NCBI RefSeq assembly: GCF_030684315.1
Contig: NC_081373.1
Span: forward strand, 32,589,989-32,653,988
DNA from: Stegostoma tigrinum
Lineage: Eukaryota
DNA length: 64,000 nucleotides
Direction: 5' to 3'
The notes beneath the pieces were generated by a model that saw only the letters and a list, made by a program, of their open reading frames with translations, was not told where the DNA came from and searched no databases. Of the stretch, positions 1 through 63,270 are shown piece by piece (positions within the stretch are counted from its first letter, which is position 1; every line of letters begins with the position of its first letter). A program made the translations under genes and the position numbers.

Positions 1-815
1 TTCCATATTAAGCAGAGGTTCACCTGCACATCTGCCAATGTGGTATACTGCATCCATTGTACCCGGTGTGGCTTCCTCTACATTGGGGAAACCAAGCGGA
101 GGCTTGGGAACCGCTTTGAAGAACACCTCCGCTTGGTTCGCAATAAGCAACTGCACCTCCCAGTCGCAAACCACTTCCACTCCCCCTCCCATTCTTTAGA
201 TGACATGTCCATCATGGGTCTCCTGCAGTGCCACAATGATGCCACCCGAAGGTTGCAGGAACAGCAACTCATATTCCGCTTGGGAACCCTGCAGCCCAAT
301 GGCATCAATGTGGACTTCACCAGCTTCAAAATCTCCCCTTCCTCCACCGCATCCCAAAACCAGCCCAGTTCATCCCCTCCCCCCACGCACCACACAACCA
401 GCCCAGCTCTTCCCCTCCACCCACTGCATCCCAAAACCAGGCAACCTGTCTCTGCCCCCCTAACCTGTTCTTCCTCTCACCCATCCCTTCCTCCCACCCC
501 AAGCCACACCTCCATCTCCTACCTACTAACCTCATCCCACCTCCTTGACCTGTATGTCTTCCCTGGACTGACCTATCCCCCACCTCCCCACCTATACTCT
601 CCTCTCCACCTATCTTCTTTTCTCTCCATCTTCGGTCCGCCTTCCCCCTCTCCCTATTTATTCCAGGGTCCTCACCCCATACCCCTCTCTGATGAAGGGT
701 CTAGGCCCGAAACGTCAGCTTTTGTGCTCCTGAGATGCTGCTTGGCCTGCTGTGTTCATCCAGCCTCATATTTTATTATCTTGGATTCTCCAGCATCTGC
801 AGTTCCCATTATCAC
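1..815 (+). mobile_element. 3' end of a Penelope-like retroelement: GIY-YIG endonuclease C-terminus, C-rich 3' region, hammerhead-bearing pseudo-LTR
   Basis: Frame is open from base 1: FHIKQRFTCTSANVVYCIHCTRCGFLYIGETKRRLGNRFEEH...VANHF...LQPNGIN (VY...YIG, R..EH, HF and GIN motifs of PLE endonucleases). The terminal sequence 717-815 recurs at 50433-50540. Confidence 0.9.
687..720 (+). ncRNA. Minimal type-I hammerhead ribozyme motif, core intact
   Basis: CTGATGA (689-695), A, GGG-tctagg-CCC stem II, GAAA (709-712), palindromic ACGT helix III, predicted cleavage after GTC (716). Stem I is only CT/AG (2 bp). Confidence 0.75.
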
Positions 816-1866
816 TGGATAATTTATAAGTTGTATTCAGAGAAAGCTGAGGCTTCAAACCCTTATCTTTTGTGATTTCGCAGTGCAGCCAATGTTTCTT
901 ATTTTCTATTTAGCCCTTAAAATATGTCACTTCATTTTGGATTTACAGAACTTTTTTTTTCAAAACTTGGGATATTGTCTTGATAAAATGTGTCTATGAC
1001 CACATGCTTGCCTCAAGATGCATTCTGCTTGTAGGTCCTTTCAATTTATCATTGAAGTTTTTCGATACTCTAGGAAGCTAAGCTGAGTTAAATTCTAATG
1101 GCTTTTTTTTATCCCTTCTCTATCCCTTGAGAAGATAACCTTAAAAAAGTTCTTGGCAGTAATTTTTTTGTGTTGAAATGAGTCAGAGGTTTAACAGGAG
1201 CCGTAGTAGCATGTGGACTATCTCTGTGACAATACTGAATTTGAAAGTTACGGTAGTTCTTCAGACAGTTACGTTTGTGCAGTTGCTCCAATTGCCTTTG
1301 CTGTTTTCAAATGTCTAAAGTTCTTCACATTGGTTCCTCTTTTTGTTGATATTGCTTACTGAAAATTTGTGCCAATCATGCACTTCAAATGTGTGGAAAT
1401 GTTTAAGACTCTTTTCCTGAATGATTGTAGTGTGAATATATCCAGGTTAAGCCAAGGCTTTTGGATAAGGCTAAGAACTTACACTAGAAAGGTAAATGAA
1501 AAGGCATGAGTTAATTTAATATGCAAATTAAATGCAGTACTGAAGTCTATTTTTCAATTTGAATTTGATTTTAATGCCTAATTTTGAATGTATACTTGTA
1601 TGCTTTGTTTGACTTTAAATAGCTTCAGACATTGGATTAGTTAAGGAAATTGAATTATAAGTTGATATTGCTATCTTCAGTTTTAAATGTTAGAAAAATT
1701 AATTGTGATCCAATGAATGAGTCTGTGAAAAGCAATTTCAGACAGTAAGAAGTTTTAATATGCAGATATGACATTCTATGAAAGCTGTTGTTGCTATAAC
1801 AAAGGTTTCTGAAGAAAGTAAGTTGGCAATTTGAATATAACCATTCTGTTTTGTGTTTAATTGAAG

Positions 1867-1963
1867 GCAACATGAAACTGTTATACCAAATGAGCTCCCA
1901 TTGGTTCAGGAAGTCACTACAACTCTTCGAGAATGGTCGAGTATATGGCGCCAGTTGTATGTT
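1867..1963 (+). CDS. DOCK1: DOCK1 coding exon (approx. exon 5), 97 nt
   Basis: ttgaag|G...GTT|gtgagt. Translates (G)[32 protein letters not shown], matching recalled human DOCK1 [32 protein letters not shown]. Ends in phase 0. Missed by the ORF track. Confidence 0.95.
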
Positions 1964-2299
1964 GTGAGTGAACTATAATATGCGAAGAAGTTTTCTCCAC
2001 ACTGCTATGTTTTAAGCAGTATATTATGTTTAATGTCATTCGGTCTCCTGCAGAAATATTGTAACTCCATGAAGCTCCATAATGAGGACTGCTGTCTTTG
2101 TATTTGACATTAGTTAGTGCTCCTAAGTTTCATTCACATGAACTAAAGATCAAACACTTTTTCTTGAAATTGCTGGCTTTGTTTTTCAATTATATTTTCC
2201 TCCACCCCTCAGTTTGAGCACAATTGAATGAAGTATTATGATGAACCAATTGTTTTCAAAATGCAACCGTTCCTAATCTTGGTGTGGGCAAATCTAATC

Positions 2300-3320
2300 T
2301 GGCCAGTTGCTGCCCCATTAATTTACTCATTCATCACCAGAGTAATGGAGAACATTGTTAATAGTTCTGTGGAGTAATATTTGCTGATCCCCTTCACTGA
2401 TGCTTAGTTTGAGTTCTGTTAGGGCTTTTAGGCATGCAGCCTCATTACAGAATTAGATCAAACGTAGGCAAAATGTGCTACAATTCGGGGGAGGCAGTTG
2501 TGGTGTTGGCGGAGAGCAGTACTGGTTTCAGGAATATCTAGCACACGAAGATAGTAAATCCTCTCAGCTTCTGTAGACTGTTGCAGGAGTTTGAGTTTAG
2601 TGACCTAGTCTCAGCTGCTACAACAAGGACGTTCACCTCCCTCATAAGGTCAAGAGTGAGAATGTGCAATCTTCAGCAAGCAGTGTTTAACATCATTTGC
2701 AACTTCTCAGATACCAAAGCAATCCATGTTCATGTGTGCTAAGATCTGGATGAAATTCAACCAATCAACTTTGGTTTGATATGCAACAAGTAACATTTAC
2801 CTCATACAAGTCATGTATGACCACTTACAATGAGTAAGAATCTAAGCACTTTCTTTGATATTCAACATCATCTAGTCCTCTACTGTTAACTTCGTTGATC
2901 AGAAACTGAACTAGGACAAGCTGTAGAAATACTCTGACCTCAAGAGCCGGCAAGAGGCTGTAAATTCTGAGGCAATGAACTCACCACCTGACTTCCCAAA
3001 ACCTGTTCACTCTCTGCAGTTCAGAACGTGTGAACAAATGTGCTCCTTTTGCCTGGATGAGGGTTGCTCCAAAAATGTTCAATAAGCTTGACACTAATCA
3101 GGACAAAGTAACCTGCTTTATTGCAATCCCATCTATCACCTTAACCTATCACTGACCACTGCTGAAGTATAGTGGTAGTAGTCCATGCTATATGAAGAGG
3201 CTCTAAAACAACTAACCGTAAGTCCTTTGACATCAACTTCCAACCTCTGATCTCTACCAACTAAAATGTAAAGGCAGCAGGCATGTGGAATGCCACCATT
3301 AACAATTTTCCTTCCAGGCC
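2300..3320 (+). mobile_element. Decayed 3' part of the second LINE family (same as 54400-57170)
   Basis: Collinear similarity to 21686-22200 and 56620-57170, e.g. aagcttgacactaatcaggacaaag vs aagcttgacaccatccaggataaaac. Confidence 0.65.
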
Positions 3321-3324
3321 GCAC

Positions 3325-4949: not shown

Positions 4950-6365
4950 CAGTCATAGTTATACAGCACAGTGTGTTTGGTCCAACCAATGCGTGCTGAC
5001 CAGAATCGTAAATTAATCTAATCCCATTTGCAAGCGTTTGACCCATATCTCTCTTAAACCCTGCCCATTAATATTCCCATCCAGATGCCTTTTAGATGTA
5101 ATTGTACCAGCCTCCACTACTTCCTCTGGCAGCTGTTTCCATACATGCAGCACCCTCTGAAAAATTTACCTCTTAGGTGTCTCTTAAACCTTTCTCCTCT
5201 CACTTTAAACCTATGCCTTCTCGTCTTGGACTCCCCTACTGTGGGACAAAGACCTTGGCTATTCACCCCATCCATGACCCTCACAATTTTATAAACCTCC
5301 ATAATGTCACTCCTCAAACTCTGGTGTTCCAGGGAAAATAGCCCCAGCTTATTCAGCCTGAGATAACCTTTCTTACTGTCCACTGTGACATCAATTTTGG
5401 TGTCACCTACAAACTTACTAACCATTCCTGTCAAATTCACAACCAAATCATTTATATAAATGTCAAAAAGCAGTGGATCCAGCCCTGATCTTTGCGACAT
5501 ACTGCTGGCCACAGGCTGCAGTCTGAGAAACAACTCTCGACCACCACCCTCTTTCTCCTTCATGTGGAGATACCAGTGTTGGACTTGGGTGGACAAGTTC
5601 AAAAATCACGTGACACTCGGTTATAGTCCAATGAGTTTAATTTAAAACACAGCTTTTGGAGCCCTGTTCTCCTTCAGGTATTGAGAAGGAGCGAGACTTT
5701 GAAAGCTTGTGATTTTAAACAAATCTATTTGTCTGTAACCTGGTGTTGTGTGATTTTTGATTTTGTCCTACCTTCAAGCAAATGTTGTATCCAATTGACC
5801 GGCTCCCCCGGACCCTGTGTGATCTAATCTTACTCCCCATTCTACCATGTGGAACCTTGTCAAATGCCTTCCTAAAGTCCATGTAGATAACGGTCACTCC
5901 TCTGCCTTCATCAACCTTCTTTGTCACTTCTTCACAAAACTCAATCCAGTCAGTAAGACATGATCTCCCCTGCACAAAGCCATGTTAAATGTGCCTAATT
6001 GTTCCTTGTCTTTCCAAATATGTACAGATCCTGTCCCTCAGAATACCTTATCCACCACTGACATCAGGCTCATCGGTCTATAGTTGTCTGCCTTTTCCTT
6101 ATGGCCTTTCTTAAATAATGAAGCCATATTAGCCGACCTGAAGTCGTCTTGCACCTTACGCATGGTAATTGATAGTACAGATATCTCAGTTGGCGCCCAG
6201 AAATTGCTTCCTAGCTTCCCACAAAGTTCTGGGATATGGCTTATCAGGTCCCAAGGATTTATCCACCATCTCCTCTGTAATATGGACACTTTTCAAGATA
6301 TCACTATTTATTTCTCCAGGTTCTCTACTTCCACATCCTTCTCCACAGTAAATACTGACACAAAT
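4950..6365 (-). mobile_element. Decayed CR1 LINE with internal deletions, interrupted by a PLE-derived cassette
   Basis: Minus-strand remnants NYRPMSLMSVV, YMDFRKAFDKVPH, IYINDL..SKFVGDTK and EVYKIVRVMDGV. Confidence 0.85.
5566..5769. mobile_element. Inverted-repeat PLE-like cassette with two degenerate hammerhead halves, inserted in CR1
   Basis: Arms ggacaagttcaaaaatcac...ttatagtccaa and tgtctgtaacc...gtgatttttgattttgtcc. Centre contains gaaggagcgagactttgaaagctt. ccttca is present on both flanks. Confidence 0.6.
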
Positions 6366-10079: not shown

Positions 10080-10081
<2 letters not shown>

Positions 10082-10126: not shown

Positions 10127-12521
10127 ACATGTACAGCTATTTGTGGCAAGTGTACAGAAGGCTGACAAAATTTTGACAGATTCAAATTAATTATCCCTCT
10201 CATGCTGTCTCTTCCACCTCCACCCAAATTACTTCAGCTATGGTAGCTACTGCAATGTTTAATTGTGCAATTTCATTAAGCTTGAACAGATTCTAATTTT
10301 TCTTTGTACACCTTAGGGACATACGGATTTACTACTGAGTTCAAGAAATTAAATCTATAATCTCTGCTTCATTTTTCTATGCCCTTTTCTTTGCTTGTTT
10401 AATTTTTCTTTCTGTCAGCGGCCCACTCCATCTAAGTACATTTTTGTTTTGTATTCCTTCTTATCCTTTCTCCATTCTCTTAGGCCCTGGATTCACGGAC
10501 TCAAAAATGGTATGGTGCAGGAGTTGCCCATTCGGCTCATCCCATCTGCACCGACTCTCAGAATAAGCATTAAGATTTCAGTGCTGTTCTCTTCGCATTT
10601 CCCTGTAACCCTTACTAATGCTGCTATCTCAGTCTGTAGAATTGTTCACCCTGTGACATGCTGTTCTTATCTACCCTGCCCCTTCATCAAAACTTATTTC
10701 ATCTCTCGCTTCGTCCCAGTTCTGATGAAAGGTCACAGACGTTTTTGTATCAGACTCTTTCTTCCACCACTTCTGTCACTGCTACCACTAATTACTTACG
10801 ACCATGCTCCAGTCCTCCATGCACTTCAGGTTTGTAGGTGTGGTATAGCATACGTAAGCAAAACCTTTTATGATGAAATTAGTATCTTTATTGCAATAGT
10901 ACCCTTTTAAAATAGAGGATTGCTAAGTATTTGTTCACTAAAGATGACAACAGAATTGAAATTTCTGCTTCTCGAAAAAGCTACATAAATCTGTATGAAA
11001 ACATGTGAAATAGGAGCAGAAGTGAACCATTCTTCCCTTTAGCATGCTCCGCCATTCATTAAGATCATGGTTAATCTGTCTGTCTTTTTAATTCCACACT
11101 CCCATCTATCCCCAAAACCTTAGATTCTTATTAGACTAGGGAATCCATCTGTGTGTTTGAGAAATAATGCCCCCACCATTTAAACATGAATAAGTTCCAA
11201 AGTTGCAAAACCATCAGAGAAAAATTTTCCTTCTCATCTCTGTTTGAAATGGGTGACTTCAAATTTTGAAATAGTGCTGCTTAGTTCTAGACTCATCCAT
11301 AAGTGGAAACACCTTTTCCTGTGTCATGATTCTCATGGATAGTGCACTGGAAATCAAGCTTTACTATTCCTGGAGTCATCACAAATGTGAAAATTTGACT
11401 AAACCACCAAATTGCTCCAATTCTGTGCAGCCTATCCAATTCAGGTTAAAAGAATATGCAGACAAGATTTTTTTCCATTTCCAGAAAATAGCTGCTGTAA
11501 TCATACTGTTTTTAGTGAATGACAAGAAGTAAGCAAGTTGGATTGTCATCTATATTCATGTAACTTGAACTCTGTTCCTTTCAAAAATTCCCATTCAAGC
11601 ATTTAGTTGCCAGAGATACAACTTGAGTATTGAGTGTTTTTTTAGTTTGTTTTGATTCTTTCTGACTCTACTGATGATACAAGGTTGTAGATACACTGCT
11701 TCTCCGTCTTTCATTTGCTACTTGACAATTTGTCCTTTCATTGTCTTTGGAGTTGCCCTTCCTTTTTTTCCCTTTCGACAGGGGATTTACAGATGGGGCA
11801 ACTCTGAGGAAAGATGAAGAAGAGTAGCCAAATAATTTTTGTCTCCCTGTGTGTAAAGTAGTAAAAGAGAAATTGATACTTTTTCTTTGCAGGCTTGATG
11901 TTTTTTGCTTTATTGCCTACACATAACGCTGCATCCATCTGTCAGGAACCAATCAAGTGGTTGCTGCTATGCTGAAAAGTCTGAACCCACAATGACTGGT
12001 ACCAGTTGAAAAGCCAATCAAGAGACTTCTCTGGACAGAATTGTCCTGAACCTGAAGGGTGTCAATTTGTCTGCAATTCTCTCACTGCTCCAATATGGCA
12101 ACATTGTATTTATAATGCACAGGGTGTTTCAATAACTTATTAAAATTGCAAACAACTTTTTACACTGTTTACTTGGTTTTAAAGAAATATCTTCCTGTTT
12201 TTAGTCCTCAGGCTGAAAAATTAAAAGTGATCTTTACACCACATGACCTTGTCAAGGCCATTCAGGATGTTAAACAATCCAATCATGCCACCTCTCCTCA
12301 ATTCCAGTGGAAATGTGCTCAGCATGTTCAGTCTATCCTCAAAGACAACCCGCTAATTTGTTCTCAATCAAGTAAATCGTCTCTGAATGCTTCCAATGCA
12401 GTTAAATCCTTAACCAAGGTGATCAAAGCTGCACACGGTATTCAAGATCTTGTCCCATCAGTGCCCTGTATAACGGAAGCAAATCATCCATCCTTTGTTA
12501 ATGTTTCAAGTCCACTGATCT

Positions 12522-12842
12522 GGGGCGGCATGGTGGCTCAGTGGTTAGCACTGCTGCCTCACAACACCAGAGACGCGAACTGAATCCCTGCCTTGAGCAA
12601 CTATCTTGTTGCGTTTGCATATTCTCTCCGTGTCTGCGGGTTTGCTCCCACAGTCCAAAGATGTGCTGGTCAGTTGGGTTGGCCATGCTAAATTCAGTGT
12701 CCAGGGATGTGCAGGCTAGGTGGACTAACCATGGGAAATGCTGGTTTACAGAGTACGTTAGTGGTGGGACACTCTTCGGAGGGTTGTCTGAACTTGATGG
12801 GCCAAAAGGTCTCCATCCACTGTGGGAAATCTATGATTCTAC
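12522..12842 (+). mobile_element. HE1-type tRNA-derived V-SINE
   Basis: GGGGCGGCATGGTGGCTCAGTGGTTAGCACTGCTGCCTCAC head, V-domain-like GTTTGCATATTCTCTCCGTGTCTGCGGGTTT, and ctatgattct tail. Confidence 0.85.
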
Positions 12843-12859
12843 AACCTTTGTCCTCACGA

Positions 12860-13088
12860 AGGATATTGAAGTGCTAACTCTAGTTTTCTCTCTACAGATA
12901 TTGCCAGAACTGCTGAGTTTCTCCAATAACTTTGTTTTTGTTTCAGATTTCCAACATCTGCAGTTCTGAGGAAGGGTCGCTGGACCCAAAACATTAACTC
13001 TGTTTTTCCTTCACAGATGCTCCCAGACCTGCTGAACTTTTCCAGCAACTTTGTTTTTGCTCCTGATTTATAGCATCTGCAGTTCTTA
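12860..13088 (+). mobile_element. Tandem pair (period about 120 nt) of PLE terminal units with a CpG-decayed hammerhead at the junction (12962-12999)
   Basis: AGTT-CTGAGGA-A-GGGTC-gctg-GACCC-aAAAC-aTT-AACT. The unit taactct...acagat...gcagttct is repeated. Confidence 0.75.
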
Positions 13089-13854
13089 CCTTGCATGATT
13101 ATGTGTTGTACGTCCATACTAATTTTTTGGTGTTCATGCATTAAAATACCTAAATCTCTTTATATTTTCATATTTCTCTTCATACATTTTCATTCTGTCA
13201 CATTTTCCCATATTATATTTCATGAACAGATTTTTTTGTCCAATCAATCAACCTATCAATATTATGTATCATTTTGTTTCTCAGTTTTTATTTTTATGGA
13301 TGGTTGGAATTTGTTTATGAACATTGGTCCTTTTGGTTCTGTAATCTGAAGTTTTCTTCAGCCTTGTATTCCTTTCCCAGTCCCTGTTGCTGTGCACAAA
13401 AAGTTTGAGGGCAGCATACGTTGGTGGTAAAGGATCTTTATTGGCTGAAATTGGTTAAATTTTAATGCCTTGAATCTCTCCAACCCCTAAAGAGGGAGAG
13501 AATACATTTTTGATTAGAAGCTATAGGAGTGCAAGTTTTATCTGCTATTCATTTATCAGATGTTCAGGTTATTACAGAAACCATAGAATTTTGCAGCACA
13601 TAAACAGGTTTTCAACCCAAGTGGTCTATGTTAGTGTATATGCTCCATGTGGCACCTTATTTCATCTCCCCCTATCAACATAACTGATAAATTGATCAGA
13701 CTTTTCCCCTTTGGAAGCAGACTGACTGACTGTACCGATAATATTCATATCTTTTAAATGTGTAACTGACAGTTTTCTACCTCTTTCCGCTTTCTGTGGA
13801 AAGTCGAGTTTGCTATTTTCTAGTCTGATAAAACCTTTCCTGCATTAAAAGGAA

Positions 13855-17220: not shown

Positions 17221-17360
17221 CCTTCTGGCAAAAGGTCACCCGACCTGAAATATTAACTGCTTTTTTTTTCTGCACAGATGCTGTCAGACCTGCTGAGCTT
17301 TTCCAGCAACTTCTGTTTTTGTTCCTGATGTACAGCTCCTGCAGTTCTTTTGGTTTTCAG
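17221..17360 (+). mobile_element. Solo PLE terminal unit with degenerate hammerhead
   Basis: AGGTC-accc-GACCT-GAAA-tatt-AACT followed by the same tail as 12996-13088. The CTGANGA box is mutated. Confidence 0.7.
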
Positions 17361-24970: not shown

Positions 24971-25865
24971 TTTGAAATGCAATAAAAGTTCTGTTACCTG
25001 GCACTGCACTGACTGGAATGCTTTATCAACTTGGATTTCTGGTGTCATCCAAGACCAGCTTTATTTGGCAGCTGAAGTTTAATAACAGGAACATAATTTG
25101 GCAATCTTACCAAATTCATTTTTTTCCCCTCATTTGACAGCTATATCCTAACAGACAGGTCATTATCTTTTGGTAAAAAGGAATCTGTTGGTACTGTTAG
25201 TCTGATTAGCAAACAAGTGAAATGGGTGGTTGCTTCCTGAGGCCATGACTGTATAAAACTGATTGGAGGGGTTTATAATGTTTTACCCCTTCAGGTACCA
25301 TAAAACTCTCTGTTCTGCTCATTATATAGCCTTGGCAGTATTCCTTTTGTCAGCTGACATGTTTTGATTTACCAACTCAATTCATATTGTTGCTGGATAA
25401 CACTGATTTAACTGTAATGAGAGGTTTTGCTGGAATAGTGCAAAAACTGTTCCTTCTGGTGATGACTCAGTGACAAGAGATCTTTAATTTGAAATTAACA
25501 GGAGAGTAAAGATGAGAAATCTTTTCACTCTGCTATTTATTGAAGTTTTGAATGCTACACTAAAAAGATGGTGAAAACTGATTCCTTCAATAATTGTAAA
25601 AGGGCATTGGACATTTGCCTGAAGAAGAGAAGCATGCAAAGTTACACTGTTGCAAGCTTTCATGCCATTTCCTGCCTCTTTCCTTTCCAAAGTCCTTGAA
25701 TGTGTCATTGCTTTCTAAGTCCATTCTCATCTTTCCAGAAACACTCATGTTTGAATTCCTCCAATCAAGTTATGCATCTGCCACAGTGCAGAAATAGCTA
25801 TTATTAAAGTCACAAATAACATCCGAAGTAATTGTAACAGAAGTAAACTCTTTGGTTTTGAGAGT

Positions 25866-25975
25866 TAGTAGGAACAGCAGATGCTGGAGAAGCTGAGATA
25901 ACCAGGTGTAGAACTGGATCAACACAGCAGGTCGAGCAGGAAGGCTGGCGTTTCGTGCCTAGACCCTCCTACAGT
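25866..25975 (-). mobile_element. PLE terminal unit with degenerate hammerhead, followed by a (GTCTTT)-like simple repeat to about 26022
   Basis: Minus strand reads ctgtagga-gggtctaggcac-GAAACGCCAGC..., homologous to 689-815. Confidence 0.7.
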
Positions 25976-35872: not shown

Positions 35873-36275
35873 AAGCAAATTACTGTAGATACTAAAATCT
35901 GTACAAAAAGCAAAAAAGTGCTGGTGATTGCAGTGGGTTAGGCAGCATTCGTGAAGAGAAAGCAAGCTAACGTTTTCAGTCTAGATGACTTCTTCATCAG
36001 AGCTGACACGATGTCTGGAGGGGGCTACATTTATGCAATAATTTGGGAGGATAGTGGTTAGAGTGCTGGGGGAGAAAGTCTGAAGTATCAACATCCTTTC
36101 TCCCCCAGCAGACTCCCCTCTCCACCGTCCACCATCTCCTTCCCTCACCCCCGACTATGGCATAAAATTTGCACGTTTCACGTCAGATCTGATGAACAGT
36201 CATCTAGACTCAAAACGTTAGCTTGTTTTCTTTCCATTGATGCCAGCTAATCCAGCATTTCGTTGTTTTCTGTTC
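35873..36275. mobile_element. About 400-bp inverted-repeat PLE-derived cassette carrying two opposite hammerhead motifs
   Basis: Minus-strand motif at 35965-36004 and plus-strand motif at 36185-36223. Inner perfect 15-bp inverted repeat tgctgggggagaaag / ctttctcccccagca. Confidence 0.8.
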
Positions 36276-36451
36276 AAATAACCTAACAGTTTGTCATGTG
36301 ACTGGAGTTTTGAATTGAAACACTTAGATAATGTGATCGTTTTGATGTTACCCTTTTTAGCAACAATTCTGTTTTGAACCAGTTTATGAGGGACGTCAAG
36401 CAGTAGTGGGCTTTGGTTAAAAACTGAGACAACTACTGATCCTGTAACTCT

Positions 36452-37005
36452 CAAACAAAAACAGAAATTGCTGGAAATGCTTAGCAGCTGTGAAGAGAAA
36501 TCAGAGTTAACCTTTCGGTGACCCTTCCTCAGAACTGATGGTGGATAGGAAAATGTCGGTTTTTATGTAGACGATAGGGTGGGGTAAGGAGAAAACAAAA
36601 GGTGTGGATAGTGCCTAAAGAGAGAAAGAGAATGAACAGTTGGACAGACAGAGGATTGGATAACAATCTGGCTGGGAGGGTGAATAGCTGTTAATGGAGA
36701 CTGTTAATGGCTAACAGTAGATTTATGTGTAATAGCAAACAATGTGATCACAAGGCCTGGTGTGTGGAGGTGTGGGCTAGGACATAGAGAAATTCAACCC
36801 TAAAGTTATTGAACCTGGTATTGAGCCCATAAGGCTGCAGGATCCCCAATTGGAAAATGAGGTAATGTTCTTCTAGTTTAGGCTGAGCTTCACTGGAACA
36901 CTGCAGCAAGCCTGAGGCAGATTTTGGCCAGGGAGCAGGGTGGTGTGTTGAAATATAGGAATTGGAAGCTCAGGGTCATTTTTGTAGGCAGAACGGAGAT
37001 GTTCA
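36452..37005 (-). mobile_element. Decayed PLE 3' end (GIY-YIG C-terminus plus hammerhead terminal unit)
   Basis: Minus strand encodes KLEEHYLIFQLGILQPYGLNTRFNNFR (compare RLQEQQLIFRLGTLQPNGINVDF at 1-330). It also reads AGTT-CTGAGGA-AGGGTCACC-GAAAG-GTT-AACT at about 36503-36535. Confidence 0.8.
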
Positions 37006-38384
37006 AAAAACAAGTGCTGTCACTTTCCAGGAGTTGATGAGTTTTGTTTTGTCCTGGTAATAGCTAGAAATTTCCGGATGCAGTTAACTTCTTCATGGAG
37101 TTTGATCACAGACATTTTAAAATCTACAAGAATCACTTGTTCAAAAATAAACTTAAACATTATAAAGCTTTTAATAAAGCAGTTCAGGATCCCTCTTTCT
37201 CTCTTTGGGCATAACACCTCTCTAATTACTTGCTTGAGGCTAACTTTTTGCAATTCTTATACAAGGACACTCAGATTCTTATATATTGTAGTCCGTTTCG
37301 ATGGAAATACAATTCCACTTCTTTCCAGTTGGATAACAACATTTTCCCACATTAAAAACAGGGCTGTTGGTCTATAACAACCTCAGTTTAACCAGTCTGT
37401 ATTCCTTTGCAGATTTTTTGTGTCCTTTCACAACTTGCTTTCTTATCTAACTTTGTGTTATCAGCAAATTTGTTTTCAATCCAGTTGGACCTCCATTTCT
37501 GTTCCGTTTCATCCCTTAGTTCCTGCAGTTTATTTTTACATTCAAACATTTATTTCTTGTGGAGGGTTCTGTTTGATTTATATCCATCACTCAATTAGGA
37601 CTGCACATATCAAATCCTAGCTATTTATTGCTTTAAAAAAAAACACCTCATTTTGTCTCTTTACTGCAATCAGTGTCTCTTTATTTATTCTATACAAATT
37701 CCTTAGGATTTTAAACACCTGTTCTCCTCTTAGCCTTTCCTGCTGTTAGGAGAATAACCTCTGCTTCTTCGGTCTGTCCCCATAACAGTAATCTTTCATC
37801 GCTGCAACTATTTTAGTGAATATATTTTCTACACTTCCTAAAGCCCAAGCACTCTTTTAGAAATTGCATGGTTAGATCTGGACGTGATATGGAACCTCCT
37901 GGTGTTTGTTGAGTTTTTTTTTAATCAATTTGCAAAGTCCGGGATCCCAATCAGATCTTTAGTAACTGCTTTGTTAACTTCTCCTGCCATCTTCATGGTG
38001 CACCAGTGCCCCCAAGCTTCTTTCTTGTGGAACCCTTTTAAAATTGTATCATATTGTACACTCTTTGCTTGCAAAAGTTATTGCTGCCTTTTTCAGTGTT
38101 GCATTTAATTCCGCTAAGCTGCCTTATGGCCTGTTGAAGTCCAAGTTGTCTTCTGTACGACTTATCACATTGCCAAGTTTTATATCATCTGCATATGTTT
38201 ATAATATGACTTGTACCAATGAGCCTGTCACCTCAGGTTTCAACTGTTGATGTATATTGAAAGCAACAGTGGATGTATGACTGATCCTTGAGGAACCCCA
38301 CTCATACCTTAGATCGGTACAGAAAATAGCCATTCACCAAAACACTTTACTTTTGATAACCTATCAACTTTATATCTGTGGTAT

Positions 38385-49313: not shown

Positions 49314-50374
49314 GTAAGTGTTTTAAATCTTGTTAGCTCTCAATCTTTGACCAAATCTTTGTTTAATATTATCAATATGTTTATGTTTAAGGATACCTGT
49401 AAAATGTATAAATTGCAAAGCAATGTCAATGTGTTTGATTTTTGGGGTAACATGACAAATATATTGAAAATTCTATTATTGTATTAGTTCCCTGTATAAA
49501 TCTATAATGGCCTAAAGACCTATATTGTGAAATTAGCATTTTCATGTGGGAGAATTTTTGTAGCTGGACAACAATATTGTAGTGCTTTGTTTATATGATA
49601 CCATAATATCTAAACATGGAATGAAGATAAGTATTTTCTACTAACAAATGTAATGCTGCTTTATCTTGAATGCTCTTGGTGGGCGGTAGCTGTAAAAAGT
49701 CTCATTGATAAATCCCCTTTTCTGAGTAGGACCCCTCCCTCTCTCTCTCCCTGCTCCCCCACCTGCTGCCTACCCTAATCTTAGTGTCAGCCAGATCCTG
49801 GTTCTTTGCTAGGACTGGATCTAGTTCCAGCAGTACTGGTAGTGTTGTTGGAATTGGCCACCTGTTGGTTAGTATAATTTAGTTCTCGGACGTGGAACAT
49901 CCTCCCAAGATGGGGGCCCTTTGTTTTCTAATGTGGCATTTTTTTTTGGAGTAATTGTCATTTTATCAGATGAAAGCAATGAAAATTTAGAAATCTGATG
50001 ATTAAAATCTCAAAATTACTAAGTATCCTATAAAACCATGGCTGTCCATTATCACATTAAATTATATGTTACACATAAAATTATGATAGTTAAAAGCCGA
50101 TTGTTAAGACGGTCTGATTGCCTTATTAGCTCTTTTTTCTTAAAAAACACATTTTATCTGTTTGTGGTAGGCTACATTTCAGTTGATTTAATTTATGCTA
50201 TGTCTAGCTTTCATTTCTAATTTTTGGTCCTTCTACATTTTCTTGTTTATTATCAGCTTGTGCAATTCTTTGACTTTTGCTTTATAGTAACGTAGGATAC
50301 TCTTGTCTATATGTCCTTGCTTATTCTTTTTATGTTCTTGTTCATGCTTAAAAACAGCTAGCCAAAATATTGGA

Positions 50375-50540
50375 TAACAAAGTGTGAAGCTGGATGAACG
50401 CAGCAGGCCAAGCAGCATCTCAGGAGCACAAAAGCTTTTGTGCTCCTGATGCTCCTGAGATGCTGCTTGGCCTGCTGTGTTCATCCAGCTTCACACTTTG
50501 TTATCTTGGATTCTCCAGCATCTACAGTTCCCATTATCAC
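50375..50540. mobile_element. Palindromic PLE-derived mini-element with 15-bp TSD
   Basis: Arms centred on AAAAGCTTTT (50430-50439). TSD agccaaaatattgga at 50360-50374 and 50541-50555. Right arm is nearly identical to 717-815. Confidence 0.9.
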
Positions 50541-51700
50541 AGCCAAAATATTGGAGTCTCTTTTAAGCTCAGCTGTCATTGTGTTCTATTCAGCATAATT
50601 ATGATTGGGGTTACAACATAGGTCTGCTGTAAATTAGTGTTGGAATTAGGTTAATTAGTGGTGGAGTTTGAAATATTGAGTGTGGAACATTCCACTAGTT
50701 TAAGTTATGTTTCTGGCTGATGTTCTCAGAGATGTTAATGCTATTTTTGTGGAAAATAAAATTGGAAAATTTCAGTAGAATGACCAGAAGAATGTAGAAC
50801 TTAAAATGTAGATAAATGTCAAGGCAAAAGTTACAGCCAACTTGAAAGTATAAATTTCCCTGAAGTGCTGAATGACGGTTTATTTGAAGCATGTATTTGG
50901 GCTTTGTCTAGATTTGAGAAAGACATGGGTTTTGTGTTGAACTTGGTTGATTACTGCCAACAAATATAATTTATGCTAAACAGGGTATTGATTTAACTTG
51001 TCAACGGAGAATTCTCTCAAATTGTCACCAAATGTGGCCCATTGGTTACCCATGGCAGCAATATATGTGCTGAAGTCAGAGCGATAATATTATAAAGTGT
51101 TCTTGGTTTCCCCTTACCATTCTGTAGCGAGCCACCTTTCAAAATATTTGGTGTACTGCTACTCTGCCTGTTCAGTAATGTCCCTATCACATCCTATTTG
51201 TGGAAGGTGGATTCAACTTTACAGTGTTTCCGTTGAAAGTAATATAGTGAAGGAGATTTTAAAAAAAAGACTTGGAAAGGAATTGTTCATGAAAAATGGA
51301 TGTTCCCTGGCTAGGTTAGCATTTATTGCTCTTCATTAATTGCCCTAGAGAAGATGATGGTGAGCTGCCTTCTTGAATTGTTGCAGTTTTTAGTGGTGTT
51401 AGGAAGCAAGTTCCACGACTTTGACTCAACAACCGTGAAGATTAGATAATGTAGTTGCAAGTCAGGATGCTGTGTAGCTCTGAGGGAACCTTGTCATGGT
51501 GGTGGTCCTATGTATCTGTTTCCCTTGTCTTAGGTTGTTCATGGGTTTGGGAGGTGAATTGAATAATTTGTTGGCAGTACTATTGAAATGGGAAGGGTGT
51601 GATTAATCAGGATCCAAAACATTTTTCAATGTAATACATAAAACATAAGATTAGATAGATTGGTCCTAAAGGGATGAATTCCGTGCAGGTGGATGGATCC

Positions 51701-53550: not shown

Positions 53551-53606
53551 CTCATGATAGTGACAAATATTAAACTGGTCAGTTTAATATTTGTCACTAT
53601 CATGAG
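53551..53606. repeat. Perfect 27-bp inverted repeat with 2-nt spacer
   Basis: ctcatgatagtgacaaatattaaactg-gt-cagtttaatatttgtcactatcatgag. Confidence 0.97.
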
Positions 53607-54150
53607 TCAGTTTAAACTGGTCAGTTTAATATTGAGTAATACATTTGGTGAGATTCATACATATAGGGAAGGTTTCAGGTTTAGTCATTGGCCTGTGATC
53701 ATCTGAGCAAGGATGTTCATACAGATAATACTTTTTTGTCTTGGCCTACTGAGCCCCGAAAGAAAAGAATCAATCTGCCTTTCTATTCTCAGTTGTCTCC
53801 TGCAAAGTGTGTTTGTGGGTATTGACCAAAGGCACTGATATTTTCACTGAGGATCATGTGGTCTTTAACTCCTCAAGATAGCATATTCAGAGGAAGTAGG
53901 AACGGCCGCTGCTGGAGTTAGAGATAACAGTGTGGAGCTGGAGAAACACAGCAGGCCAGACAAGTACTGAGAAAGGCAATGTGGCTGTAGTACATGGTTT
54001 GCTTCAGTATGTGGTTGAGCAATTTCAGGGCCAAAGAGAGTACCAGAGGGCTGCTGTGGGAGATCCACTGAAACCTTTCCGGATGGAGGACGATAGTCAA
54101 GGTAGTCATTCCTGGTAGAAGAGGCTTCACAGTGGGGTTATAACTCACTC

Positions 54151-54330
54151 AGAGATAGTAAGAGCTGCTGACGCTGGAGTCCGAGATAACAGTGTGGAGC
54201 TGGGGGAACACAGCAGGCCAGCGTAATTAAGATTTTCTGAAGAAGGGTCCCGACCTGAAACATCAGCTTTCCTGCTCCTCTGATGCTACCTGGCCTGCTG
54301 TGTTCCTCCAGCTCCACACTGTCTTATCTC
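54151..54330. mobile_element. Inverted-repeat PLE-derived cassette with + strand hammerhead (54237-54268); related solo fragment at about 53894-53961
   Basis: Arms gagataacagtgtggagctgggggaacacagcaggccag and ctggcctgctgtgttcctccagctccacactgtcttatctc. Core CTGAAGA-AGGGTC-cc-GACCT-GAAAC-ATC-AGCT. Confidence 0.8.
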
Positions 54331-54399
54331 AAAATACATATATTCCTTTTGAAAATAGAATTGTTGGAAATTTTTAAAATGTTCACAACAAATAATTAT

Positions 54400-57170
54400 A
54401 TTATCATGAGAATGTTCGTGCAGAAACTAAGCCAGTGCTCTGGACCTCTGGTTGAATCCCGTCACAGAAGATGGTAGAATTTGAATTCCGTAAAATATAA
54501 TCTGGAATTCGGAATCTACTGATGACAATGAAACCATTTTTAATTGTTGGAAAAACAATTGTTGGGAAATTAACTTTGCTTACATGCAATCTATGTTCAG
54601 TTTAAGCTTGGTTCACTAAGGCCCTAGGGTGGCATAGTGCTTTAGGGACCTGAGTTCGATTCCATTCTTGCTGACTGACTATCTGGAGATTGCACATTCT
54701 CCCTATCTGTGTGGGTTTCTTGTGGGTGCTGTGCTTTTCTCCCACAGTTCAAAGATACGTCGGTTGGTCAATTAGCCATGCCAAATTGCTCATAGTGTCC
54801 AGGGATGTGTAGGTTAGCGAGGTAGGTTATCTGTGGGAAATGCAGTGTTATGGAGATAGAGTGGGTGGGTTTGGGTTGATGCTCTTCAGAGGGGTGGTGT
54901 GGACTTGATGGGCCTAATAACCTGCTTCCACTCTGTACGGATTCTATGATTCTCTGGAAGGAAATCTACCATCCTCACATGGTCTGCTTGCATATGATTC
55001 CAGAGACACACCAATGTAATTGACTCTCAGATACCCTCTGAAATGGCTTAGCAATCAATTGTTACAAAGTCTCAAAAAAGAAATAAAACTGGAAGGACCC
55101 TCTGGCATCAATCTGGGCCCTGGAAATGACAACAGCCCTATTGATGCTGCACAGTCCTCTTCACCTAACATCCGTGGGTGAGTGCCAAAATTGGGAGAAC
55201 AGTCTAGTCTAGCAACAGCTTGACATTGTCATACTCATGGAATCCTAGCTGACAGGCAAATCCCCAGGTACTACTATGAGCATCCCTGGATATGTCTTCT
55301 CCCACCAGTAGGACAGACTCAGCATAGGTGAAGGCACAGTGGTATGCAGTTGGCAATTGCCCTGGGAGTCCTCAGCATTGACTTTGGACATCATAAACTG
55401 TCATGACAGTAAGCCATACGTGGGCGAGGCAACCTCCTGATTACCATGTTCTATACTTGCTTAGCTGATGAATCAGTACACCTCCATGTTGAACAATACT
55501 TTGTGGAAACACTGAGAGTGGCAAGGGCGTAAAATGCACTCTGTGGGAGACTTCTATGTCTACCACCATGAGTGACTTGGGAGATGGAATCTAAAGGACA
55601 TAATTCTAGACTGGGTCTGTGATAAGTGGTGAAGAAACCAAAAGGAGACTAAAAACATAACTAATCCTCACCAATCTGCTTAATGCACGTGCATCTGCCC
55701 ATGAAAATATTGGTAAGAGTGACTGACTACCACATAGTTATTTTGGAGATCAAGTCCCACCTTCACGGGGAATATCTTACCTTGTGTTGTGTGGCATTAT
55801 CAATATGTTAAATGGGACAGGCCTCAAACAGAGCTCCCAATTCAAGACAGGACATCAATGAGCTGCTGTGGGCCATCAACAGCAACAGAATTGTACTCTT
55901 CTTGGCTCAGCATAACCCCACTCAGCCATTTACCGTCAAATCAAAGGAGCAACCTTGGTTCAGTGGAGAATCCAGGACAAGCCAGGAGCAGCCTCAGTCA
56001 TTCCTAAAAATGAGGCTTCAACCTGATGCAGCTATCAAACAAGACCACATGCATGCCAAACAGCATAAGCAGCGAGTGATGACAGAACTAAGTGATCCCA
56101 CAACCAATGGATCCAATCTGAGCTCTGCAGTTTTGTCATATCCAATTGTGAATGGTAGTGGACAATTAAAGAACTCCCTGTAGGAGAAGGCTCCGTAAAT
56201 ATCCCCATTCTCAATAATGGAAGAGCCCTGCACCTTAGTGCAAAATGTAAGGCTGAAGCATTCACTACAATTTTCAGCCCAAAATGCCAAGTGGATGATC
56301 GATCTTGACTTTCTCCAGTGGTCCCCAACATTACAGTCTTCATCTTTTGGGCAATTCAATTCATTCCACGTAATGTCAAGAAATGGTTGGAGGCTATGGG
56401 CCCTGACAATATTCTGGCAATAGCACTGAAGATTTTTGCTGCAGAATGTGCCACACTCCTGGCTAAGATGTTCAATTACAGCTACAACACTGGCATCTCT
56501 CCAAAAATGTGGAAGGTTGCCCAGGTAAGTCCTGAACACGAAAAGCAGGACAAATCCAACCCAGTCATTCTACTGTTGATCAGTAAAATAATGGAAGGTG
56601 TCAGAGTTATGAACCAGCATTTTCTCAGCTTGGCTTGGGCTGACAACTGGTAAGTAACATTCATGCCACACAAATCCCAGGCAATGATCATTTCCATTAA
56701 GAGCCAGTCAGATCACTGCCCCCTGACATTCAATGGCAGTACCATCTTTGAAATCTCCACTATCAACATCCTGGGGGTTATCATCGACCAGAAACTTAAC
56801 TGGACTCACTGTGTACAGTGGCTACAAGAATAGGTTAAAAAGCTAGAATACTGTGGCGAGTAACTCACCATCTGACTCCCTAAAGCCTCCACCATCTAGA
56901 AAACGCAAGTCAGGAGCATGGTGGAATATTCCCCACTTGCCTGGATGATTGCAGCTCTAACAACACTCAAGAAGCTTGACACCATCCAGGATAAAACACC
57001 TTGTTTAACTGGCACCACAGCTACAAACATCCACTCCCTCCTGTACAGATGCTCAGTGGCAGCAGTGTGTATGGTTTTCAAAATGCACTGCAGACGTTCA
57101 CCCAACATCCTTAGACGACATCTTCAAAACCCACAAACACGTACGTTGGAACATCAGCACCTGCAAGTTG
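54400..57170 (+). mobile_element. Decayed, internally deleted LINE of the second family (CR1/L2/Jockey group; clade unassigned) with tRNA-like 5' head
   Basis: NIRG*VPKLGE...QQLDIVILMES (APE start, about 55167), AMGPDNIL...WKVAQVSP..KQDKSNP, then a jump to AWADNW and VRSMVEYSPLAW. The RT catalytic core is missing. Confidence 0.8.
54627..54953 (+). mobile_element. HE1-type V-SINE nested in the head of the second-family LINE
   Basis: gggacctgagttcgattcc...tggagattgcacattctccc...ggattctatgattct. Host sequence resumes at ggaaggaaatctacc. Confidence 0.8.
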
Positions 57171-61519: not shown

Positions 61520-61975
61520 GTGGAAGGAGTGCTAGAGACTCAGCAACTTGCTGACAACCATGCATGTGCAGTTTCTTCAGCGCGCTCACAGCTATCTATG
61601 GTCCATGCCCAGGACCTACTCTGCTGAGAACCAAACAACAGCTGCTCGTCAAACACAGAGGCAGTCAGCGCCTGCTTGCGTGAGCGCTTGGAAGATCTTC
61701 TCAACCAATATACAGCCTTTGCAAGTGCTCTGATCACCATCTCACAACACACTACCTGTCACTACCTCAGCACGCTTCCAATCTGCCACAAGCCAAAGAA
61801 GTCAAGAAAGGCACTCTTGACATGAACCCATGACCTTATTGTACTTGTGTGGGAGGAAGAGAGCATGCCGGAAGATTTCAGAGACATGAATTGCGGCCAT
61901 TTTCAAGAAAGGAGACAGGGATGACTGTGGAAATTACAGAGGGATTTCCTTACTATCTGCCATGGGAAAGGTTAT
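61520..61975 (+). mobile_element. RTE-clade LINE fragment
   Basis: VWEEESMPEDFRD...IFKKGDRDDCGNYRGISLLSAMGKV. NYRGISLL is typical of RTE-clade RTs. Confidence 0.7.
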
Positions 61976-61977
61976 AA

Positions 61978-62745
61978 CAGCACAAGAACTAGGAGCAGGA
62001 GTAGGCCATGAGGCCCCTCCAGCCTGCCCTGCCATTTAATAAGATCATGGCTGATCTTTTTCAGACTCAGCTCCATTTACCTGCCCACTCACCGTAACCC
62101 TTAATTCCTTTACTGTTCAAAAATTTAACTAGCCTTGCTTTAAAAACATTCAGTGAGGTGGCTTCAACCGCTTCACCGGGCAGGGAATTCCACAGATCCG
62201 CAATCATTTGGGTGAAGAAGTTCCTCCTGACCTCAGTCTTACATCTGCTTCCCTTTATTTTGAGGCGATGCCCTCTAGTCCTAGTTTCACCTGCTAGTGG
62301 ACACAGCCTCCCTACCTCCACCTTATCTATTCCCTTCATAGTCTTTATATGTTTCCATAAGATCTCCCCTCATTCTTCTGAATTCCAATGGGTATAATCC
62401 CAGTCTACTCAGTCTTTCCTCATAATCCAACGCTCCCAACTCTTGGAATCAACTGAGTGAATCTCCTCTGTGCCCCCTCCAGTGCGAGTATATCTCTTCA
62501 AGTAAGGAGGCCAAAACTGCACACAGTACTCCAAGTGTGGCCTCACCAGGATCCAATACAGCTGCAGCATAGCCTCCCTGTTTTTAAACTCCATCCCTTG
62601 AGCAATGGCAGACAAAATTCCATTTGCCTTTTTAATCACCTGCTGCTCCTGCAGTCCCGCCTTCAGTGATTCATGCGCAAGGACACCCAAGTCCCTCTGC
62701 ACAGCAGCGTACTGCAATTTTTTAACCATTTAAAACATAGTCCAT
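61978..62745 (-). mobile_element. CR1 LINE 3' part
   Basis: QRDLGVL...VRPHLEYCVQFWPPY and TRGHRLKIKG..VRRNFFTQ. Confidence 0.9.
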
Positions 62746-63095
62746 TAGACAATAGGTGCTGGAGTAGGCTATTTGGCCCTTCGAGCCAGCATCACCATTC
62801 ATTTTGATCATGGCTGATCATCCACAATCAGTATCCTGTTCCTGCCTTATCCCCATAACCCTTGATTCCACTATCTTTAAGAGCTCTATCCATCTCTTTC
62901 TTGAAAGTATCCAGAAGGTTGGCCTCCACTGCCTTCTGGGGCAGAGCATTCCATATATCCACCACTCGCTGGGTGAAGAAGTTGTTCTTCAACTCTGTTC
63001 TAAATGGCCTACCCCTTATTTTTAAACTGGTTCTGGTCTCGCCCATCAGCAGAAACACGCTTCCTGCATCCAAAGTGTCCAATCCCTTAATAATG

Positions 63096-63270
63096 GATGT
63101 GAGTTTGCCCGCTTAGCTAGAAGGTCAGTTTTCAGACAAGCTTCGTCGGAGGCTCACTGATGATGTTACCTAGAATGGTGATGAAACGTCTGAAAACTAA
63201 CCTTCCAGCTCAGCGAGCAAACTCACATCCAGAACCTCAACCTGAGCTACAAATCCTCTCAAAACTCGCT
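63096..63270 (+). mobile_element. 175-bp inverted-repeat PLE-like mini-element with 14-bp TSD, inserted in CR1
   Basis: TSD atcccttaataatg at 63082-63095 and 63271-63284. Arms at 63095-63137 and 63188-63230. Confidence 0.88.
63154..63193 (+). ncRNA. Minimal type-I hammerhead ribozyme motif, core intact
   Basis: TCA-CTGATGA-T-GTTACC-tagaat-GGTGAT-GAAAC-GTC^TGA. Stem I TCA/TGA, 6-bp stem II with G-U pairs, palindromic ACGT helix III. Confidence 0.8.

What the first reader, a model, noticed from the sequence alone, without database searches (positions are those of the whole stretch)
689..63270. A population of ORF-less, hammerhead-carrying, asymmetric hairpin mini-retroelements from at least four families
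Seen: about a dozen hammerhead motifs or relics (689, ~5650 and ~5685, 10722, 12966, ~17225, ~25945, 35965, 36189, ~36503, 54237, 63157). Core boxes are shared while stems covary: stem I AGCT/AGCT, AGTT/AACT, TCA/TGA; stem II GGG/CCC, GGGTC/GACCC, AGTC/GACT, GTTACC/GGTGAT. Five loci (5566, 35873, 50375, 54151, 63096) share one architecture despite differing sequence: 165-400 bp, inverted arms, one arm longer by a 25-40 nt tail, no coding sequence. Two have clean 14-15 bp TSDs. Known: Penelope-like elements carry minimal hammerheads with a palindromic helix III in their pseudo-LTRs, and often insert with an inverted segment plus a short tail. Inference: these are either extreme 5'-truncated PLE insertions or non-autonomous, ribozyme-processed units mobilised in trans, i.e. 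a retrozyme-like system in a cartilaginous fish.
Basis: partly seen in the sequence, partly recalled or inferred. Interest (0 to 1): 0.8.

Follow-up and report, generated by a model that had tools for sequence, protein, structure and literature searches.

The report
Truncated Penelope retrotransposon ends in shark
The small DNA hairpins with ribozyme motifs in this shark-like gene intron are stubs left when ordinary Penelope-type jumping genes inserted only their last 100-400 bases, a known pattern rather than a new kind of mobile element.

Summary
The motifs and hairpins are real, but they are 3' ends (pLTRs) of Penelope-like elements (PLEs). Two 'ORF-less' hammerheads (689+, 36532-) lie downstream of GIY-YIG endonuclease coding sequence; the first is 92-94% identical to RT-EN proteins of zebra and whale shark. 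That pLTR matches the arms at 50375, 54150, 53887 and 25858, and more distantly 12966, 17225 and 35873. Of 12 claimed motifs, 5 keep the whole core; cassette 50375 has no hammerhead. Outer ends are fixed (tail end, and a site 24-41 nt inside it). Inner junctions differ at all 5 hairpins, though only 2 are in one family, so this test is weak. Head-to-head pLTRs, a 30-40 nt tail, TSDs and opposite-strand minimal hammerheads are all published PLE features. Retrozyme tests fail: no tandem of intact motifs, no canonical hammerhead, and the arms mask the fold. Four hairpins lack the RNA beyond the tail that a PLE protein needed in vitro, so they are probably dead on arrival. Two leads remain. Both arms of 50375 start exactly at the predicted cleavage site, and other 5' ends cluster at the core's 5' edge. 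Locus 53887-54329 is an internally deleted mini-PLE that might be remobilisable.

The parts
1..815 (+). 3' end of a coding Neptune-type PLE (family A): GIY-YIG endonuclease C-terminus (1 to about 330), pyrimidine-rich 3' UTR, hammerhead at 689 (core intact, helix I 2 bp, predicted cut after 716), pLTR body, tail ending at 815
   Evidence: Pfam GIY-YIG E 1.8e-4; 94% and 92% identity to Stegostoma and Rhincodon RT-EN proteins; the Stegostoma protein P0001 ends with the translation of the same hammerhead
5563..5770 (.). Family E hairpin: two head-to-head arms, each starting at a decayed hammerhead (5677-, 5681+), 25-nt tail on the left; inserted in a CR1 fragment. Assigned to PLEs by architecture only
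   Evidence: 67 identities, 19 mismatches between arms; flanks map to adjacent CR1 positions 18908 and 18916; no similarity to families A, B or D above shuffles; no protein link found
10629..10740 (+). Weak family-B-like relic: pyrimidine-rich stretch plus the 5' half of a hammerhead at 10722
   Evidence: E 0.06 to a profile built without it, best hit in reversed-window control E 0.64; no GAAA box
12845..13090 (+). Family B partial head-to-tail tandem of two pLTR pieces; first hammerhead position decayed, second (12966) has one core mismatch
17223..17352 (+). Family B solo pLTR piece starting at the hammerhead, 2 core mismatches, no inverted arm
   Evidence: 80% identity to 12964-13087
25858..25974 (-). 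Family A solo pLTR piece, decayed hammerhead, 14-nt internal deletion, no inverted arm
   Evidence: nhmmer E 5.4e-13 to 689-816
35873..36279 (.). Family C hairpin: two long arms, each with a hammerhead (36000- core intact; 36189+ one mismatch) and about 90 nt of upstream UTR; 24-nt tail on the left
   Evidence: 130 identities, 39 mismatches between arms; related to B (E 2e-6) and A (E 0.003); no significant TSD
36428..37088 (-). 5'-truncated coding PLE (family B): GIY-YIG C-terminal remnant (about 37088-36787), 3' UTR, hammerhead at 36532 (core intact, helix II shortened), pLTR
   Evidence: tblastn E down to 5e-9; profile E 7e-11; DNA match to 114-364, E 4.7e-10
50360..50555 (.). Family A hairpin 50375-50540 with 15-bp TSD (50360-50374, 50541-50555); both arms begin at the AGCT at 50433, equal to position 717 of the reference copy; 9-bp tandem duplication beside the apex; no hammerhead core
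   Evidence: 92-94.5% identity to 717-815; 61 of 62 arm identities; TSD
53872..54343 (-). Family A composite insertion 53887-54329: tail-less inverted arm with hammerhead 54237(+), short filler, pLTR piece with tail (54225-54150), 190 nt of PLE ORF start (54149-53960), second pLTR piece with tail (53959-53887); degenerate TSD of about 15 bp
   Evidence: flank match reached by 14 of 20000 random 21-mer pairs; 64 stop-free codons, versus 241 of 5000 random segments; pairwise E 9e-5 to residues 20-50 of a full-length RT-EN protein P0022; database search with the peptide found nothing
63082..63284 (.). Family D (Poseidon-like) hairpin 63096-63270 with 14-bp TSD; best hammerhead of the window (63157+); reading frame open from helix II to the tail end; inserted in a CR1 ORF2
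   Evidence: 38 of 42 arm identities; TSD; peptide hits two Opisthorchis hypothetical proteins, E 3.7e-6 and 3.2e-5, each with two copies of the motif; CR1 frame ends and resumes with a duplicated IIKG

Best explanation
These loci are one-off, heavily 5'-truncated insertions of at least five families of endonuclease-bearing Penelope-like retrotransposons (A, B, C Neptune-type; D Poseidon-like; E unassigned), piled up over time in introns of a DOCK5-like gene of a carpet-shark-like fish. Likely mechanism: the RT-endonuclease of a full-length tandem copy binds its RNA downstream of the pLTR and nicks both target strands about 14-15 bp apart (gives the TSD). Each nicked strand primes reverse transcription at one of two internal start sites 24-41 nt apart (gives one arm with the tail and one without). 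Both cDNAs stop after 40-215 nt and are joined head to head by microhomology, a short palindrome or filler. The hammerhead is a passenger because it lies about 100-130 nt from the 3' end of every PLE; copies shorter than that (50375, 53887) lack it. Shown here: homology to a coding PLE, fixed outer ends, variable inner junctions, TSDs. Shown elsewhere (Anolis Poseidon in vitro, PMC11167929): cleavage and extension of both strands, two internal RT starts matching the tail, need for RNA well past the start sites, no need for hammerhead cleavage. Inferred: that the two arms come from two priming events, and that tail-terminated hairpins cannot serve as templates again.
For: GIY-YIG coding DNA upstream of hammerheads 689 and 36532. 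P0001 carries RT, EN and the translated hammerhead in one named shark record. Single-sequence nhmmer with window 1-830 recovers 9 other segments at E<=1e-3. Family A outer ends coincide: tail end at or within a few bases of reference 815 at 689, 50540, 54150, 53887, 25861; tail-less end at 778-781 at 50375 and 54329. Inner junctions differ in 5 of 5 hairpins. Solo, tandem, hairpin and ORF-bearing versions of the same pLTR coexist, with arm identity from 77% to 98%, i.e. many ages. At 54150 the tail-less arm reaches further 5' while the other arm has the tail, so neither arm can be a fold-back copy of the other. Literature passages: inverted 5'-truncated copy and 30-40 bp tail (PMC8557442); inverted pLTR, 31-bp tail, 8-10 bp TSDs, junction palindromes, solo pLTRs (PMC3846280); dual minimal hammerheads 100-700 bp apart on opposite strands, 'probably related to truncated PLEs' (PMC4209133).
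Against: The junction test is weak: 5 hairpins, only 2 in one family, and those two from subfamilies about 80% identical; no shark genome could be searched. Family E has no protein link. The family D link to a PLE ORF is indirect: the Opisthorchis hits have no Pfam family and P0029 does not align with P0022 (best E 0.77). 5' ends are not uniformly spread: 7 of 16 arms fall in a 12-nt window at the core's 5' edge (crude p 0.005; 5 of 9 events, p 0.01), which random truncation does not predict. Clean TSDs were found at only 2 of 5 hairpins. The in vitro RNA requirement comes from one Poseidon element and may not hold for Neptune-type families. PMC3846280 reports pLTRs sufficient for mobilisation in trans.
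Confidence: 0.85

Rival explanations
1. The hairpins are self-propagating non-autonomous elements (SINE/MITE-like PLE derivatives) mobilised in trans as fixed units.
For: Shared architecture and TSDs. The composite 53887-54329 is an internally deleted mini-PLE that keeps 190 nt past the tail, and its two tail-bearing pieces start within 4 nt of each other. Non-autonomous PLE derivatives are known in Chlamydomonas (PMC8557442 passage) and trans-mobilisation by pLTRs in Adineta (PMC3846280 passage).
Against: No junction recurs (0 shared among 5). The same pLTRs occur as solo, tandem and ORF-bearing copies. Four of five hairpins end at the tail and lack the downstream RNA needed by the Anolis protein (172 nt of ORF, against RT starts at 111-118).
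Confidence: 0.07
2. They are non-LTR retrozymes: tandem hammerheads cut out unit-length RNAs that circularise and are reverse transcribed.
For: Five motifs with intact cores, palindromic helix III at 689, 63157 and 36000. One head-to-tail pair at 12845-13090. Retrozymes are reported from one chondrichthyan and traced to PLE pLTRs (bioRxiv 10.64898/2026.07.22.740005).
Against: Tandem Repeats Finder finds no array with a hammerhead. The only tandem has one decayed and one mismatched core. Paired motifs in 5566 and 35873 are on opposite strands and cannot meet in one transcript. Predicted helix I pairing inside the cassettes is at most 1e-5. No Rfam hammerhead match.
Confidence: 0.03
3. Some hairpins were longer inverted PLE insertions whose centre was deleted later, because long inverted repeats are unstable (or collapsed in assembly). 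This changes how the inner junction arose, not the PLE origin.
For: The 50375 apex is a 4-bp palindrome, which forms a direct repeat between the two arms, and a 9-bp duplication lies next to it. Six 4-mer palindromes exist in the 92-nt module.
Against: 63096, 54150 and 35873 keep asymmetric loops or filler, and solo copies (17225, 25974) are equally short without any inverted partner.
Confidence: 0.15

Closest known systems
EN+ Penelope-like elements, Neptune clade (truncated copies, inverted pLTR, tail)
   Same: C-terminal GIY-YIG endonuclease; a Cys-rich linker between RT and EN in the 92%-identical relative P0002; minimal hammerhead in the pLTR; head-to-head inverted 5'-truncated copy; tail; TSD.
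   Different: The copies are at the short extreme (whole insertion 166-443 bp). TSDs of 14-15 bp are longer than the 8-10 bp in Adineta. Family A has only a 2-bp helix I in genomic form. Clade assignment rests on the linker motif; no tree was built.
Poseidon element of Anolis carolinensis (PAc)
   Same: Family D: reading frame opens at helix II, predicted cut 28 nt after that ATG (PAc: 26), tail end 108 nt after it (PAc RT starts: 111-118), two outer ends about 40 nt apart.
   Different: No RT or EN sequence of family D is in the window; sequence similarity to PAc was not tested.
Animal non-LTR retrozymes (PMC7229834; bioRxiv 10.64898/2026.07.22.740005)
   Same: Type I hammerhead topology, few hundred bases, no ORF, PLE ancestry, TSDs longer than 4 bp.
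   Different: Retrozymes are head-to-tail tandems with a hammerhead in each unit, mostly of the canonical type in PMC7229834, and give circular RNA. These loci are head-to-head or solo, with minimal, mostly decayed motifs.

Membership tests
EN+ PLE | GIY-YIG endonuclease coding sequence upstream of the pLTR | tested here: met
   Families A and B. Not found for C, D, E in the window.
EN+ PLE | Telomerase-like RT in the same ORF | tested here: inconclusive
   The RT part lies before the window start; the 92-94% identical relatives P0001 and P0002 carry the RT motif region by inspection, but Pfam called only GIY-YIG on P0001.
EN+ PLE | Minimal type I hammerhead in the pLTR | tested here: met
   5 of 12 claimed sites have a complete core.
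EN+ PLE | Inverted 5'-truncated copy, head to head, with optional 30-40 nt tail | tested here: met
   5 hairpins, tails 24-41 nt.
EN+ PLE | Variable 5' truncation with fixed 3' ends | tested here: met
   small sample, and 5' ends are clustered rather than uniform.
EN+ PLE | Target site duplication | tested here: met
   Exact at 2 of 5 hairpins, degenerate at the composite, not significant at 5566 and 35873.
Neptune clade | RT phylogeny and Zn-finger-like linker between RT and EN | tested here: inconclusive
   Linker seen by eye in relatives; no reference PLEs and no tree.
Non-LTR retrozyme | At least two consecutive head-to-tail units each with a complete hammerhead | tested here: not met
Non-LTR retrozyme | Canonical type I hammerhead (6-bp helix I, loop-loop contact) | tested here: not met
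   Helix I 0-5 bp, 2-4 bp in the five intact motifs; no Rfam match.
Non-LTR retrozyme | Self-cleavage and circular RNA in vivo | not testable with these tools
   Needs RNA data or assay; folding predicts masking inside cassettes.
Non-autonomous PLE derivative | Many copies sharing one internal junction | tested here: inconclusive
   0 shared among 5 hairpins in 64 kb; host genome not searchable.

The most novel reading that the evidence does not exclude
The inner junctions of short shark PLE insertions record real RNA ends made in vivo: a peak at the hammerhead cut site (both arms of 50375 start at cut+1; the short arm of 63096 stops within 3 nt of it) and a second peak at the 5' edge of the core. 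That would be genomic evidence that PLE hammerheads cleave during retrotransposition, which RNA-seq did not show for the Anolis element. In addition, internally deleted mini-PLEs like 53887-54329, which keep the ORF start past the tail, may form a true non-autonomous family.
Probability: 0.15. Interest if true: 0.6.

Novelty: new member of a known kind. Interest (0 to 1): 0.22.

Why it matters
As it stands it matters little: it shows that shark introns hold many short PLE stubs (14 arms or copies of the Neptune-type module, counting the weak 10722 relic, plus two other hairpins in 64 kb) that can be mistaken for MITEs, miRNA hairpins (50398-50480 scores below threshold against two miRNA families) or retrozymes. 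The one useful point is that such abundant short copies make an open question testable by computation alone: whether PLE hammerheads cut in vivo, and whether inverted arms arise by priming from both strands at the two RT start sites.

Tried and rejected
Rfam scan: no hammerhead family at E<=10. Strict descriptor with helix I of at least 3 bp missed 689 and 54237 and was barely above shuffles. Word-based protein searches with the family D peptide and the composite's spacer peptide found nothing; the tool calls this weak evidence. P0029 versus P0022 gave no alignment. A scan of prokaryotic genomes for a family A 22-mer gave 1 locus with a match of at most 28 nt, treated as chance. Degenerate TSD searches at 5566, 35873, 25858, 12850, 17223 and 36431 gave nothing convincing. 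D and E show no similarity to each other or to A and B above 300 shuffles. The helix II probability for 63157 used a wrong offset; the corrected value (0.97 for helix II, below 1e-6 for helix I in the cassette, 0.26 for the forward arm alone) is. The DNA profile matches its own 13 training rows by construction and is used only for the extra hit at 10722. A circular-template model for the composite was considered and dropped: it does not explain why the second pass stops at the same place. Paper searches: 'Penelope-like, hammerhead, inverted, shark' 0 papers; searches listed no paper, judged by title and abstract start, on short PLE hairpins in sharks or on junctions at the cut site; Repbase, Dfam and subscription journals were not searchable, so absence from print is not established. 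One paper on dimer cleavage by PLE hammerheads (recalled) is not held.


Full report
Setting. The window is 38.9% GC without N. Two exon-sized frames near 16150-16330 and 32490-32660 match Pfam DOCK_N, and the first matches DOCK5 best among solved structures (E 4.5e-18). The loci therefore most likely lie in introns of a DOCK5-like gene on the + strand. Much of the rest is CR1/L2-type LINE debris, including a stop-free 556-aa RT frame at 17958-19628(-). The closest named relatives of the window's PLE protein are from Stegostoma and Rhincodon (94% and 92%), which supports a carpet-shark-like host.

Observation. The five hairpins exist: 5563-5770, 35873-36279, 50375-50540, 54150-54329, 63096-63270. 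Arm identities over aligned bases are 67/86, 130/169, 61/62, 40/41 and 38/42, and tails are 25, 24, 35-37, 34 and 39-41 nt. Exact TSDs of 15 and 14 bp flank 50375 and 63096. Of the 12 claimed hammerheads, 5 have a complete core, 4 have one or two mismatches, 2 have three, and 10722 is half a motif. Several losses look like CpG decay by inspection (G12 at 12966 and 36189; helix III ACGT to ACAT at 54237 and 12966). Cassette 50375 has no core. A core-only pattern finds 6 sites versus a mean of 2.3 in 200 simulations (3 of 200 reach 6); a stricter descriptor is near chance; Rfam finds none. The motifs are credible mainly because they sit at the same place in homologous modules.

What they are. 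Bases 1-330 encode the end of a GIY-YIG endonuclease. A search among longer proteins gave 27 hits at E<=1e-10 of 79 candidates. The best, P0001, runs from RT through EN and ends in the translation of the hammerhead at 689. So 689 is the pLTR of a coding PLE whose 3' end is at 815. A second GIY-YIG remnant at about 37088-36787(-) precedes hammerhead 36532. With 1-830 as a single query, nhmmer finds 50430-50546 (1e-20), 25974-25861 (5e-13), 54234-54331 (7e-13), 50441-50367 (1e-11), 37011-36756 (5e-10), 12957-13088 (1e-6), 54221-54138 (5e-6), 17224-17348 (9e-4) and 53971-53882 (1e-3); the 35873 arms join through family B (2e-6). Families A, B and C are thus branches of one group. I call it Neptune-type because relatives carry a Cys-rich RT-EN linker (criterion from a passage of PMC8557442); no tree was made. 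D (63096) and E (5566) are unrelated to these and to each other at the DNA level. In D the frame is open from helix II to the tail end, the layout described for the Anolis Poseidon element (PMC11167929, first two of four parts read). The 37-aa peptide has 2 hits at E<=0.001 among 1.84 billion representatives, both Opisthorchis hypothetical proteins holding the motif twice. They have no Pfam family and the longer one does not align with P0022, so this link is suggestive only. E rests on architecture alone. Both D and E interrupt CR1 fragments whose halves are contiguous, which supports the boundaries.

Ends and junctions. In family A the tail end falls at or within a few bases of reference 815 in five copies and the tail-less end at 778-781 in two. 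The inner ends differ: 717/717 at 50375, about 688 and 740-744 at 54150, about 689 at 25974. The other three hairpins have their own junctions. Locus 54151 is not free-standing. The flanks of 53887-54329 match as a degenerate TSD (14 of 20000 random pairs score as high). The 190 nt between its two tail-bearing pieces read as 64 stop-free codons (241 of 5000 random segments do so) with a weak match to the N-terminus of a full-length RT-EN protein (pairwise E 9e-5; best of 24 proteins, E 0.0016; no database hit). It is best read as inverted arm + pLTR + ORF start + deletion + pLTR, a miniature of the textbook PLE insertion.

Mechanism. In vitro, the Anolis protein cuts and extends both target strands, starts reverse transcription at two internal sites that delimit the tail, needs RNA reaching 172 nt into the ORF while the starts lie at 111-118, and does not need hammerhead cleavage; RNA-seq showed no ends at the cut site. 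Applied here (inference), priming from both nicks at the two starts, early termination and head-to-head joining yield these hairpins and TSDs. At 54150 the tail-less arm extends further 5' while the other arm carries the tail, so one cannot be a fold-back copy of the other; fold-back self-priming, proposed in PMC3846280 (passages), remains possible at 50375 and 63096. Hairpins that end at the tail lack the downstream RNA and should be dead on arrival; only the composite keeps it. As RNA, the cassettes should not cleave: paired motifs are on opposite strands, and predicted helix I pairing within the cassette is at most 1e-5 for 63157, 54237, 36000 and 36189. For 54237 and 36189 it is also negligible in isolation; for the 63157 forward arm alone it is 0.26.

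Against the simple reading. 5' ends cluster at the 5' edge of the core: 7 of 16 arms in 12 nt (uniform null over -100 to +60, p 0.005), or 5 of 9 events (p 0.01). The two long copies (689, 36532) were left out, the null is crude, the positions were set by eye, and three boundaries rest on loss of similarity. Both arms of 50375 begin at the first base after the predicted cut, but that AGCT is one of 6 four-base palindromes in the module and a 9-bp duplication beside it suggests apex instability. The short arm of 63096 runs 3 nt past the cut, which a cleaved template would not give unless those bases are microhomology. These are leads, not results.

Comparison with known systems. Inverted 5'-truncated copies with a 30-40 bp tail are drawn as typical in PMC8557442 (passages) and described with TSDs and solo pLTRs in PMC3846280 (passages) and PMC8969392 (passages). 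Thousands of scattered minimal hammerheads, including pairs 100-700 bp apart on opposite strands, were ascribed to truncated PLEs in PMC4209133 (first two of four parts read). Non-LTR retrozymes are head-to-tail tandems giving circular RNA (PMC7229834, passages); a 2026 preprint finds them in one chondrichthyan, requires two consecutive units with complete motifs and derives them from pLTRs (10.64898/2026.07.22.740005, first three of five parts read; supplements not seen). The loci here meet the PLE features that could be tested and fail the two retrozyme features that could be tested. My searches (listings only unless stated) showed no paper on these shark families, but Repbase and Dfam were out of reach.

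Verdict. Real features, ordinary explanation: new members of a known kind, interest 0.22. The boldest reading still open, that junction positions record hammerhead-made RNA ends and that mini-PLEs like the composite propagate, has probability about 0.15 and can be settled with the host genome.

Noticed in passing
window 16143-16334 and 32464-32742 (+): Two exons of a DOCK5-like gene; all the PLE stubs appear to be intronic.
   Followed up: partly
window 17958-19628 (-): Stop-free 556-aa CR1/L2-type reverse transcriptase frame (Pfam RVT_1 E 2.5e-35), a young copy among many decayed ones; next to a (TAGAACA)5 repeat at 17856-17890.
   Followed up: partly
window 53149-53190 and 54562-54603: A 42-bp direct repeat (98% identical) brackets 1.4 kb that holds the composite PLE insertion and an unusual palindrome; origin unexplained.
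   Followed up: no
window 53548-53629: A 30-bp-arm near-perfect palindrome followed by a partial repeat of its centre; no similarity to the PLE modules seen.
   Followed up: no
window 47706-47908 and 48760-48964: 205-bp inverted repeats, 89% identical, about 850 bp apart; look like terminal inverted repeats of a non-autonomous DNA transposon.
   Followed up: no
window 31554-31618 and 32179-32243: 65-bp inverted repeat (91%) within or beside a CR1 fragment.
   Followed up: no
window 10700-10721, 36533-36560(-), 36001-36010(-): In families B and C a CAG lies just upstream of the hammerhead core, after a pyrimidine-rich tract in B, like a 3' splice site; PMC4209133 reports an intron ending at helix I in Drosophila Penelope. 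It might relate to the clustering of 5' ends.
   Followed up: no
window 12523-12840, 24145-24454, 40880-41199, 54645-54953: Four copies of a roughly 310-bp interspersed repeat, 66-75% identical, SINE-like in size; ARAGORN found no tRNA gene.
   Followed up: no
window 45390-45429 (-): Possible tiny family B fragment (E 0.01 to 0.9); may be chance.
   Followed up: partly
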